Positions 2,401 through 17,171 of a stretch of 64,000 nt of DNA are shown piece by piece. Position 1 is the stretch's first letter. Each line of letters begins with the position of its first letter. The position numbers and the translations under genes were made by a program. This stretch comes from Octopus vulgaris (taxonomy: Eukaryota), in contig OX597816.1 of NCBI GenBank assembly GCA_951406725.2, forward strand, positions 32,364,001 to 32,428,000. The letters run 5' to 3'. Below the pieces are notes generated by a model, which was given only the letters and a program-made list of their open reading frames with translations, searched no databases and had not been told where the DNA came from.

Positions 2401-4217
2401 ATATTTACAGTCATTTCCAAAAAATAGTGTTGGATGTTTTGCACCCGTATCAAATTATGTGTATGTGTGGAACCATACCCGTCTCATACGTCTACAAGAA
2501 CTTAAGGACACATTAACAATCAGGGATTACCCCACGTCACTAATTGACAATGGGATCCAACGCGCCCTAAAACTCAGCAGACAGGAACGTAGACGCCCTA
2601 AACCTGTTACATCGAAAACCCATACTCTACCATACATCTCTACACACAACCCTCTCAACAATGAAGCTTTTGGCACCATCCTCCAGAACATTCCTGTATT
2701 AAAAAAGGACCATAGAATGAACCAAATCCTCCTAACACACGAAATCATAAAGAACGAAAGGCAGCCCAAATCATTGAAATCCATCCTAACAAATTCCAAA
2801 GTACTGCCAACCACAACAACTAAACGTACAGTAAACAAATGCAATAGACCCAACTGTGGTATATGCGTCAACCTAATAGAAGGTACGGAATTCCTTTTTA
2901 AACAAGGACAACGTTTCACAGTAAAACAACTTCACATGCGCATCAGAAACTTAGTATATGTCTTAACTTGCTCGGGCTGTAATGAACACTACATAGGCCA
3001 AACTAAAAATAGCCTCCGCCAACGCATGACTGTCTACAGATCCCAAATAAAAATACAGGAATACAGAAAAATACCACTTAGGGCACATATTGATACCTGT
3101 GCCGCACAACCTCATCCCAATTTTAGAATCTTTCCCCTCTTCAAATTTAAAGACAATGCCACTCATACCCAGCGAATAACCATGGAATCCCACCTTATTA
3201 ATAAATACAGACCACTTCTAAACACATCCCCCTAAAACGAACACACAACAAACACACTTACACCTGCACACACCCTACACACACTTTTATCCAGATATTA
3301 ACACCATGACACACACAAATATATGGTTCCACACATACACATAATTTGATACGGGTGCAAAACATCCAACACTATTTTTTCGAAATGACTGTAAATATTG
3401 ACTTGACACAAACACGTTGCTTCCCGATACAGGCACAAGGCCAGCAGAACTATAAATATTGAAAATTGTACCCACACACGCACACATACACCGCGCGCGC
3501 CCCAACATACGTATATACACACACAAACACACGCAAACACACACACACACGCGCACACATACATACATATAGCTCTTCCTGTCCTAGACTAACTTACTTT
3601 TCCAGCTCAAATTCAGTCAAGCGGAAAATACACTCCTTAACTACGCGCTAAAATGATATTCAAAATATCCACATGACGTCTACTGACCAGCCTGAACAAT
3701 AATTTTCAACAACGCTATTTTCGAAATCTCCATACACCACCCACATCAACATTAATTCTAAACATTCACGTGACCTCTCTATTAGGACCACATTCACGTG
3801 ACATCTTTATTATGAACAAGTTGAAATTTTAGGCGCGATACTAGCCAAATTTTAACATCTCTGGAGCCTATTTTCTTACCCCAACACCAACTTCCATTCA
3901 AACATTCACGTGACCCCTTTATAATGACCAATCAAAATTGTATTAAACCAAGCAAATCTTAAACAAATCTGGAGCCTCTTTTTTCACATATAAGAGACAG
4001 CAAACCCAACATAAAGTCAGATAAGAGAAAAAAATCAATCAGAAAGGAACTCTATCTCACTCAAAATATCTTTTGATAAGCATAACAAATGCGCAACCGG
4101 CAAAAAGAACATTTACCTAATTAAATACATTCTCTCTTACTTAAATTATTTTGTCAGCATTTTCTTCATTTCCTTTTTTTATATATCACAACTCGTGTTC
4201 CACATCTCCTTTTGTAA

Positions 4218-4218
<1 letters not shown>
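2401..4218 (+). mobile_element. 5'-truncated Penelope-like element (probably Neptune clade) with inverted 5' pLTR fragment
   Basis: GIY-YIG coding remnant 2478-3235; 77-bp inverted repeat 2401-2477/3322-3398; long 3' non-coding region with a degenerate HHR-like motif near 4068-4110; both ends abut (TA)n. Confidence 0.85.
2478..3235 (+). pseudogene. PLE RT C-terminus/linker plus GIY-YIG endonuclease (decayed)
   Basis: ORF 2333..3235: RDYPTSLID (thumb end), LPYISTHNP, RQPKSLKSILT, Cys-rich linker CNRPNCGIC, NLVYVLTCSGCNEHYIGQT (GIY-YIG), RQRM, MESHLINKYRPLLN. The N-terminal 48 aa come from microsatellite and inverted-repeat DNA. Confidence 0.9.
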
Positions 4219-4272
<54 letters not shown>

Positions 4273-12787: not shown

Positions 12788-13450
12788 TTATAATAAAGGG
12801 TTAATTGCAACAAGTTGCTCAAAACCACATACCGAAAATATTAGAAATCGCAGCCAAATTGATCGCTATTTCTCCTACTATTAAAAAAGTCTCCGCAAAC
12901 AAAGATAATTTGTAACCCGTATATGGCTAAACGAAAGAAAATAACGAAATCTCAGCCCATGGATTAATTATAGACGAATAGACGAACCGTTTCTGGATTA
13001 TATAAATGTGGGGATGCTAGCAGTCCGTCAGATCGTTCCATGTCGCTGGTTGGGCCGGTGTGACGAGTAAATTTTTTATCCCTAGCATTTCCAGATTTAT
13101 AGGAAATATTATATTGACAAGGAAATGAGCCTTCGACTCTAATACAGAAACGGCTCGTCGATTTGTCTATAATTAATCCATAGGCTGAGATTTCGTTATT
13201 TTCTTTCGTTTTGGCATATACGGGTTACAAATTCTGTTTGTTTGCGGGGACTTTTTTAATAGTAGGAGGAATAGCGATGAATTTGGCTGGTATTTATAAT
13301 ATTTTCGGTATGTGGTTTTGAGCAACTTGTTGCAATTAACCCTTTACTATAATTAATATAATCCTTACCAAATATGATATTTTCCATACCGATAAATCTA
13401 CTAGGTGAAATTTATTAATTTTATTAAATTAATTACATTTCACCCTTTTT
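12788..13450 (+). mobile_element. PLE pLTR-like non-coding element with a ~210-bp inverted duplication
   Basis: Arms 12788-13000 and 13140-13352 are reverse complements (roughly 90% identical by eye); 13250-13450 is homologous to 16370-16565; flanked by (TA)n. Confidence 0.7.
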
Positions 13451-13589
13451 GTATATATATATACGTATATATTGTTGTATTTAGGAATTTTCATTTTTCC
13501 AGTTTAGCCAATAAAAACACACGCACTATATATTTGGTGTTACTTTGCTTCAGCGTTATTTATTTTTTACATTAATCTTCATCTTATTT

Positions 13590-15060: not shown

Positions 15061-16190
15061 TCTAGATCTAACAACATAAAATTTCTAATTTTCAGATCAC
15101 TATTTATTCAAGAATAATACTGAATATTAAAATGGAATATATATGAGGATACAGTTTATTTAGAAAATAGGATTGATTTTCATAATTAACAATAACACAG
15201 TTGAAATATATATATATATATACATATATATATTAGAAGAAATGAGGTACTCAGAAAATCGGATGGTTTATATTTACAGATATTTATTTGTATATTATAT
15301 TTTTTATACTTCATATAACTTAGATCATGTATTAGCGCATTCTCCCATTCTAGTGGGGTTTTCAAATCGAACTATGTTACTGTGTGAAAAGTTTTGACCA
15401 TTTTATAGTGGTATTGAATTTGTAGTGGTGGAACGGAATATAAGACAGTGCAAGAGGGTGATGGAGAGGAGAAGTGAGAGAGAGCATGTGTGTGTGTGCG
15501 TGCGTGTGTGTGTGTGTTTGTATTTGGAATGAGTGCTAAAGAAAAAGAGGGGAAGGGAGAGGGAAAAGAAGAAAATAATTTTGTTTCTCTGCTGGACAGG
15601 GGTCTAAGGTTTTGGGGAAAAAGAATTTCAGTTTTGACCATTTCATAGTGTTATTGAGTGTGTGTTGGCGGGGAGGTAGACCATAAATTATATTTCTTTT
15701 TATCATTGTGAAAGAGTGTGCGTGTGTTTAATGAGGGATGGTCAAATGGTTTTTGGGGTTTAAAGAAGAAGAATTCTTTTTATGATTGTTTTGTGGAGTT
15801 GTGTGTGTGTGTGTGTATGCATGAGAGTGGGAGGGTGGGTGTTGTGAGTTTGGAGAAGGGAGAGAGGAGATAAAAGAGGAAGGAGAAATAATTGTGTTGA
15901 TATGTTGATATTTATACCACTATATATATATATATATATATATCAGTAACAATGAAGGGTGAAATTAATTAATTTGGAATAATTATCAATTACCCAAACT
16001 TCTTCTCTCATCAGCGCAGGATACAAACAATAATGAATGATTGTATATTGAGTTTTTAGATACTAGAAGGCACCAACTCAACTCAGTATCAGAGCGAGCT
16101 AGAAGCCACATCTAGTATCACCAAATTCAAAGTGTGAATGAAAGTTTGTGTCACCAGTCCCTTCCCACCCGCGTGTAGCCAAGACAAAGT

Positions 16191-16276
16191 GCTGATGAGA
16201 GAAAAGTTTGGGTAAGGTAGAATTATCTAATTCTTATACTTTCCTAAGACTTGATCTGGAAACGTACGTCCGTAGG
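16191..16276 (+). ncRNA. Second, damaged copy of the hammerhead
   Basis: CUGAUGA...GAAACGUACGUC is present, but stem II closes with UCUG instead of UCUC and the 5' strand of stem I is replaced by the inversion junction. Confidence 0.65.
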
Positions 16277-16770
16277 TGACTTAAAACTGTATGATAGATT
16301 GCCGTCAATTCATTCTCTCTTACCTGTTTGTGTTTGCCTTTCAAATGCTGTGTTTTTACTGAGATCTCCTTTTTAGTAGAAGAAATAGCTATAATCTCTT
16401 TGACTGCTATTTCTAAATTCGGTGTGCGGTAAGGCAATTCGTTGCTAAACCCTTAATTGCTTAGTATTACTTAAATTTTCCTCGAATGAGGCTTTTACAT
16501 GCCGAAGACTACTTGGTGTAATTGATAATTATTCCAAATTAATTAATTTCACCCTTCATTGTTTCTGATAGCCATATTCATCCCAGTAAATGACCACAGC
16601 ACTTTGTCTTGGCTACACGCGGGTGGGAAGGGACTGGTGACACAAACTTTCATTCACACTTTGAATTTGGTGATACTAGATGTGGCTTCTAGCTCGCTCT
16701 GATACTGAGTTGAGTTGGTGCCTTCTAGCATCTCAAAATTCAATATACAATCATTCATGATTGTTTGTAT

Positions 16771-16862
16771 CCTGCGCTGATGAGAGAAGAAGTTTGGGTA
16801 AGGTAGAATTATCTAATTCTTATGCTTTCCTAAGACTTGATCTCGAAACGTACGTCCGTAGG
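16771..16862 (+). ncRNA. Type I hammerhead ribozyme, apparently intact
   Basis: Stem I CCUGCG/CGUAGG; core CUGAUGA (16777-16783); stem II GAGA...UCUC enclosing a long hairpin; GAAA (16845-16848); palindromic stem III ACGUACGU; GUC cleavage triplet ending at 16856. Confidence 0.85.
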
Positions 16863-17171
16863 TGACTTAAAACTGTATGATAGATTGCCGTCAATTCATT
16901 CTCTCTTACCTGTTAGTGTTTGCCTTTCAAATGCTGTGTTTTTACTGAGATCTCCCTTTTAGTAGAAGAAATAGCTATAATCTCTTTGACTGCTATTTCT
17001 AAATTCGGTGTGCGGTAAGGCAATTCGTTGCTAAACCCTTAATTGCTTAGTATTACTTATATATATATATACATACATATACATAGAATATTAGAAAAAA
17101 AAAAAACACCTTTTATCGAATCAAAATGAACAATATATGTATATATATATATATATATAACTTGCAACACC

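What the first reader, a model, noticed from the sequence alone, without database searches (positions are those of the whole stretch)
16191..17059. 586-nt ORF-less, ribozyme-delimited repeat unit: candidate retrozyme or circular RNA
Seen: the layout is C-D-B-C (about 1.5 units), with HHR cleavage triplets ending at 16270 and 16856 (586 nt apart), few differences between copies, no coding capacity and (TA)n at both ends. Established: metazoan non-LTR retrozymes are tandem non-coding repeats with type I HHRs that yield circRNAs and are thought to be mobilised by PLEs. Inference: a 1.5-mer is what reverse transcription around a circular or multimeric RNA would leave. Alternative: a bare tandem pLTR of an autonomous PLE. 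The upstream HHR here is damaged, so this locus may not release monomers itself.
Basis: partly seen in the sequence, partly recalled or inferred. Interest (0 to 1): 0.75.

Follow-up and report, generated by a model that had tools for sequence, protein, structure and literature searches.

The report
Penelope-inserted hammerhead retrozyme, 586-nt unit
This is one young copy of a protein-free repeat, present hundreds of times in this animal genome, that carries a predicted self-cutting RNA and was likely pasted in by a Penelope-type retrotransposon enzyme; the kind is known, and cutting and RNA circles remain untested.

Summary
The 586-nt unit, both cut triplets (16270, 16856), the lack of an ORF and the damaged upstream ribozyme are confirmed. 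The genome holds 613 exact matches to the ribozyme junction. Copies are head-to-tail multimers up to 5.2 units, and none examined is joined to a Penelope ORF. Hammerhead stems covary across sister families. Among 109 loci, 40 of 55 two-armed insertions end at unit ~197 on one arm and ~300 on the other, never the same site on both: the Penelope 'tail' signature. Units and arms within a locus share one haplotype (1% apart, against 4.2% between loci). Seven arms start at the predicted cut site (1.1 expected), a post hoc hint of cleavage in vivo and of some linear templates. Verdict: a new family of a known kind, the metazoan non-LTR retrozymes. The mobilising element was not found; cleavage and circles are unshown. 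This scan has reported the same kind repeatedly elsewhere in this genome.

The parts
15921..15943 (.). (TA)n target, left flank
15941..15993 (-). inverted arm, outer piece: unit 248-300, ending at the distal fixed 3' end
15990..16194 (-). inverted arm, inner piece: unit 327-531; joined to the outer piece over a 4-nt microhomology (15990-15993), skipping about 300 nt that include the cut site
16191..16194 (.). head-to-head junction of the two arms, 4 nt shared
16191..16276 (+). 5'-truncated upstream hammerhead: no stem I 5' strand, C>G at 16258, cut triplet ending 16270 intact
16271..16856 (+). one complete 586-nt non-coding unit, cut site to cut site; 37.7% GC; folding z-score -6.3
16338..16561 (+). 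about 220-nt module (unit 68-291) shared at 70-80% with sister families; holds or abuts both fixed 3' ends; likely the signal that recruits the reverse transcriptase
16771..16862 (+). complete type I hammerhead motif, predicted cut after 16856
16857..17059 (+). partial second unit (1 to about 203), ending at the proximal fixed 3' end
17059..17084 (.). (TA)n target, right flank

Best explanation
The stretch 15941-17059 is one insertion of an ORF-less, hammerhead-bearing 586-nt repeat family (a metazoan non-LTR retrozyme) that was likely written into a TA microsatellite by a borrowed Penelope-type reverse transcriptase/GIY-YIG protein. Shown in sequence: the family, its multimers, the TA target, two fixed 3' ends about 100 nt apart, one of each on two-armed copies, and one haplotype per insertion. 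Inferred: transcripts are cut by the hammerhead, likely as a double hammerhead because stem III is short; doubly cut monomers would be ligated into circles; the enzyme would bind the ~220-nt module and prime internally from both nicked target strands, at ~197 on one and ~300 on the other, on one RNA; running on past the unit junction gives 1.5-mers and multimers, and the two cDNAs join head-to-head over microhomology. A minority of templates were likely linear RNAs cut only at the upstream site.
For: 613 exact junction matches, 0 for the reversed control. Arrays of 5.2, 4.2 and 3.8 units; a sister family has 7 units. Of 109 distinct loci, 55 were two-armed: 40 with one end at 186-210 and one at 285-310, none with two ends of the same class, 14 with one such end plus another end, 1 with neither; 54 single-armed: 48 proximal, 6 distal. 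Differences: 348/31904 within an arm (1.09%), 162/16100 across arms (1.01%), 4.24% between loci, on 40 loci. On 54 loci, 198 variant sites were shared by all copies in a locus (32 private to that locus, 15 of these on both arms), against 124 split sites, 97 of them private to one locus. Hammerhead pairs in 9 sequences of 3 subfamilies: 96.6% of cells paired, 6 of 13 pairs with two-sided changes, 0/500 shuffles reaching the covariation score. Stems I and II form in the circular fold with pair probability 0.94 or more. 5' ends within 8 nt of the cut site: 7 against 1.06 expected on the second arrival, P 1e-4; 0 against 0.85 on the first (135 arms). Inverted 5' copies, a tail on one end and TA targeting are Penelope features (PMC8557442, PMC3846280); internal two-site initiation and extension of both strands were shown in vitro for an anole element (PMC11167929).
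Against: No cleavage or circle is shown; Li et al. found cleavage in only 1 of 9 predicted retrozyme dimers in vitro (10.64898/2026.07.22.740005). No Rfam hit. Stem III has pair probability near 0 in the monomer fold, partly because the program forbids 2-nt loops. No autonomous partner was found: the two coding families examined lack the module. Arms of exactly one lap are only suggestive: 5 against 1.16 expected, P 0.007, but one unrelated control window among 64 also reached 5. Broad windows at the two start sites show no excess of 5' ends (4 against 4.6; 5 against 4.9). The cut-site excess is post hoc, from mixed samples, and favours linear templates. The covariation set is small and its members are related.
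Confidence: 0.8

Rival explanations
1. Same element and enzyme, but the templates are only linear, partly cut multimeric transcripts of homogeneous arrays; no circle is involved.
For: 7 arms begin at the predicted cut site, 4 of them at unit position 2; uncut RNA was the main substrate for the anole element in vitro (PMC11167929); the one-lap excess is weak.
Against: Truncation of about 0.0025 per nt would shorten arrays at every round, yet 4-7-unit arrays exist; variants private to a locus are shared by all its units and both arms; no arm stops at the cut site on first arrival in the two samples not selected for crossing it (0 of 39).
Confidence: 0.25
2. The unit is the pseudo-LTR of an autonomous Penelope-like element that was not sampled, and these are its 5'-truncated or ORF-deleted copies.
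For: The insertion pattern is wholly Penelope-like; Li et al. report that retrozymes are related to pLTRs; only a fraction of the copies and two coding families were examined.
Against: The unit closes on itself with no fixed breakpoint. No linked ORF in 30 loci, in 40 loci taken in order along one chromosome by the ribozyme junction, or in 40 loci of sister families. At least five further ORF-less periods share the module (455, 559, 565, 594, 602 nt).
Confidence: 0.1
3. A satellite grown in place by unequal crossing-over, the hammerhead being an inactive relic.
For: Within-locus homogeneity is also what local duplication gives; Li et al. discuss this route.
Against: Copies are dispersed, have fixed 3' ends in TA tracts and inverted arms with the same haplotype; ribozyme stems covary.
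Confidence: 0.03

Closest known systems
Metazoan non-LTR retrozymes (Cervera and de la Pena 2020, PMC7229834; read: passages and parts 2-4 of 6)
   Same: Tandem non-coding units, type I hammerhead in each, GC under 50%, well-folded monomer, Penelope-like elements in the same genome; short stem III, as in axolotl ribozymes that cut well only as dimers.
   Different: Unit 586 nt against 150-450 bp there; very long stem II; head-to-head arms and two fixed 3' ends do not appear in the parts read ('inverted' has 0 occurrences in the main text); RNA and cleavage are shown there, not here.
Vertebrate non-LTR retrozymes (Li, Clavereau and Pollet 2026, bioRxiv 10.64898/2026.07.22.740005; read: parts 1-3 of 5)
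   Same: Non-autonomous, Penelope-related; unit length within their 51-972 bp range; monomers, dimers and multimers.
   Different: They tie families to pLTRs of named elements; no partner was found here. No mollusc among their listed classes. This locus fails their 'two complete ribozymes' test.
Endonuclease-positive Penelope-like elements (PMC8557442 and PMC3846280, passages; PMC11167929, parts 1-2 of 4)
   Same: Partial tandem plus inverted 5'-truncated copy, tail on one end only, microsatellite/AT-rich target, internal two-site initiation, hammerhead upstream of the start sites.
   Different: No ORF; tail about 100 nt against 30-40 bp.

Membership tests
Metazoan non-LTR retrozyme | Type I hammerhead motif in the unit | tested here: met
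   no Rfam hit
Metazoan non-LTR retrozyme | Head-to-tail tandem copies | tested here: met
   up to 5.2 units
Metazoan non-LTR retrozyme | Non-coding, no linked RT | tested here: met
Metazoan non-LTR retrozyme | GC below 50% and strongly self-paired monomer | tested here: met
   37.7% GC; z -6.3, 0 of 100 shuffles as stable
Metazoan non-LTR retrozyme | Unit of a few hundred nt | tested here: met
   586 nt: above the 150-450 bp of the 2020 paper, inside the 51-972 bp of the 2026 preprint
Metazoan non-LTR retrozyme | 'Active' copy: two consecutive complete ribozymes (Li et al.) | tested here: not met
   this locus has one complete ribozyme; other loci of the family have several. This concerns the copy, not the family
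Metazoan non-LTR retrozyme | No LTR, primer-binding site or polypurine tract | not tested
   no LTR layout seen; no search for a primer-binding site was run
Metazoan non-LTR retrozyme | Self-cleavage | not testable with these tools
   indirect only: 5' ends at the cut site
Metazoan non-LTR retrozyme | Circular RNA in vivo | not testable with these tools
   only assembled contigs of runs guessed to be RNA were available
Autonomous Penelope-like element (pLTR of) | Continuous with an RT plus GIY-YIG ORF | tested here: not met
Autonomous Penelope-like element (pLTR of) | Partial tandem, inverted 5' copy, tail on one end, microsatellite target | tested here: met
Autonomous Penelope-like element (pLTR of) | Target-site duplication | tested here: inconclusive
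   cannot be read in (TA)n

The most novel reading that the evidence does not exclude
The copies record the whole cycle: a Penelope RT dimer primes one RNA at two sites 100 nt apart from both target strands; a ~220-nt module shared by at least six ORF-less families is the portable signal for this; and 5'-truncated 1.5-mers like this one are cut asymmetrically (the intact downstream core cuts the upstream site, while its own site stays uncut), giving the linear templates whose copies start at the cut site, while complete dimers give circles.
Probability: 0.25. Interest if true: 0.6.

Novelty: new member of a known kind. Interest (0 to 1): 0.33.

Why it matters
Mobilisation of animal retrozymes by Penelope elements has been proposed from co-occurrence and sequence kinship. 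This family shows the Penelope insertion signature directly on ORF-less multimers and names a ~220-nt candidate cis-signal and two start sites that can be tested with purified protein. The kind itself is known, and the scan holds many similar reports from this genome, so the gain is mechanistic detail rather than a new system.

Tried and rejected
Rfam scan: no hammerhead family, only microsatellite noise. Expression: no RNA holder listed; 14 runs guessed to be RNA hold part of the unit. Contigs of 4 of them cover 19-23 of 30 bins, some cross the cut site; this cannot tell circle from uncut or read-through RNA or DNA, so it is not used as evidence. No control stretch was laid on these runs. Partner search: the dominant 765-aa RT+GIY-YIG family has its own minimal hammerhead and TA-anchored ends but no match to the unit or module in 12 loci; in the GIY-YIG loci L038 and L057 the module sits in separate insertions bounded by TA; a second coding family lacks the module in the 3' flank shown for 3 loci, with module hits in 2 of 12 loci (the query locus, and L255, which was not examined further). 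Neighbouring RT pieces were judged unrelated: L272 (three TA runs between), L291 (starts mid-RT beyond the 3' TA), L168, L169, L214, L075 (wrong side or strand). A spaced cluster on C1 is a segmental duplication with a LINE. Naiad-type proteins were not used as queries. An apparent A-B-A-B alternation in a 5-unit array was two private substitutions. Variation at unit 100 lies in a homopolymer and is alignment-ambiguous. L300 was dropped as a cut-site stop because it continues with one mismatch (not counted). Short inverted arms in L020 and L024 fell below the cut-offs and were counted as single-armed. Part of the output was cut (L205-L208); those loci were re-mapped only for L208.

Full report
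Observation. The direct repeat with period 586 is real, with 4 substitutions and one indel between the two copies of the overlap. The downstream hammerhead (16771-16862) folds with stems I and II and has both core motifs; the upstream one has lost the 5' strand of stem I and has a broken first stem II pair. The unit has no ORF. Rfam does not detect the ribozyme, likely because of its long stem II and short stem III (inference). The insertion is larger than reported: an inverted arm at 15941-16194 holds unit 327-531, jumps over a 4-nt microhomology to unit 248-300 and ends in the left (TA)n; it meets the direct arm head-to-head over 4 shared nt.

Family. A search of the own genome (2.8 Gb) gave 1945 candidates, 40 scored, 151 matches; the 21-nt ribozyme junction occurs 613 times exactly, the reversed control 0 times. 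Copies are dispersed and include arrays of up to 5.2 units. Related ORF-less units of about 583, 594 and 602 nt (77-91% identical) and more distant ones of about 455, 559, 565 and 591-595 nt share a module at unit 68-291; hammerhead motifs with their own stem I were seen in most of them. A 22-nt motif of that module, in a form that excludes the 586 family, occurs 2190 times. In 9 ribozymes from three subfamilies 6 of 13 pairs change on both sides and no shuffle of 500 reaches the covariation score; the set is small and related.

Not attached to a coding element. tblastn with a 765-aa RT+GIY-YIG protein of this genome found nothing in 30 loci. Of 40 loci taken along C1 by the junction pattern, 2 had RT nearby, neither continuous with the unit; of 40 sister-family loci 1 had RT, on the other strand. 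5' ends fall all round the unit with no fixed breakpoint. The dominant coding family is Neptune/Nematis-like by its cysteine linker (feature from PMC8557442; no tree built), targets TA and has two 3' ends about 40 nt apart, but does not share the unit. The partner is therefore unidentified.

Insertion anatomy. Over 109 distinct loci, 3' ends lie at unit 186-210 or 285-310, nearly all followed by TA. Of 55 two-armed loci 40 have one of each and none has two of the same class; single arms are 48 proximal and 6 distal. This is the Penelope pattern of an inverted 5' copy with a tail on one end (PMC8557442, PMC3846280, passages), explained by two internal start sites and extension of both target strands (PMC11167929, parts 1-2 of 4); here the tail is about 100 nt. 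Units and arms in one locus differ by about 1%, loci by 4.2%, and lineage and locus-private variants are shared by all copies in a locus, both arms included. So each insertion was likely copied from one RNA variant. In the window, most differences between pieces are private to this locus, as expected for changes during or after insertion.

Circle or linear template. For a circle: long homogeneous arrays despite a truncation rate of about 0.0025 per nt; no stop at the cut site on first arrival in 39 arrivals; five arms one lap long, a weak excess because one unrelated control window matched it. For linear cut templates: 7 arms begin within 8 nt of the cut site on second arrival against 1.06 expected, four at position 2. 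This is post hoc, but it is the only hint here that the ribozyme cuts in vivo. A co-fold shows that the downstream core can form all three stems with the upstream cut site, and axolotl retrozyme ribozymes with a short stem III cut well only as dimers (PMC7229834). A 1.5-mer with a truncated upstream core would then be cut once, upstream, giving just such a template; this step is a hypothesis.

Comparison. It meets the sequence-level features of metazoan non-LTR retrozymes (PMC7229834, parts 2-4 of 6; bioRxiv 10.64898/2026.07.22.740005, parts 1-3 of 5); cleavage and circles could not be tested. Searches for retrozyme+hammerhead+Penelope, octopus+Penelope+hammerhead and retrozyme+inverted+target-primed+circular template listed no paper on this family or on two-armed retrozyme insertions; the library is incomplete and supplements were not seen. 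Earlier notes of this scan describe the same kind, with the same two-end rule, on other DNA of this genome and call it an octopus (host not checked here); a look-up by sequence found no note on this unit. My reading and the end tabulation preceded those look-ups.

Verdict. Real, ordinary in kind, informative in detail: new member of a known kind, interest 0.33.

Noticed in passing
window 12790-13452: Two-armed insertion of a sister family (about 559-nt unit) in (TA)n; the family has a type I hammerhead with the U3-A8 core variant and a 7-unit array at L103.
   Followed up: partly
window 2474-4250: 5'-truncated Neptune-like element (58% identical to the 765-aa protein), 3' region with a minimal hammerhead-like motif and TA-anchored end.
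   Followed up: partly
L061-L072 (e.g. L070 681-5526): Very young coding Penelope-like family, about 4.7-kb unit, with many intact 781-codon frames; in L065 and L070 an additional upstream 479-codon frame with no Pfam match.
   Followed up: partly
L255-L265: Second abundant coding Penelope-like family (18357 candidates), GC-rich, with a pyrimidine-rich 3' region and a very small hammerhead-like motif.
   Followed up: partly
L008, L183, L092, L150, L049: Several further short type I hammerhead families, some in tandem, many with U3-A8.
   Followed up: no
L129 1293-1886: A 197-nt tandem made of the shared module alone, three copies, without the rest of the unit.
   Followed up: no
L274, L287, L305, L277, L268: Arms truncated about 13-25 nt upstream of the cut site, at the base of the long stem II hairpin; possibly a stall site, but the sample was selected by a pattern there.
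   Followed up: no
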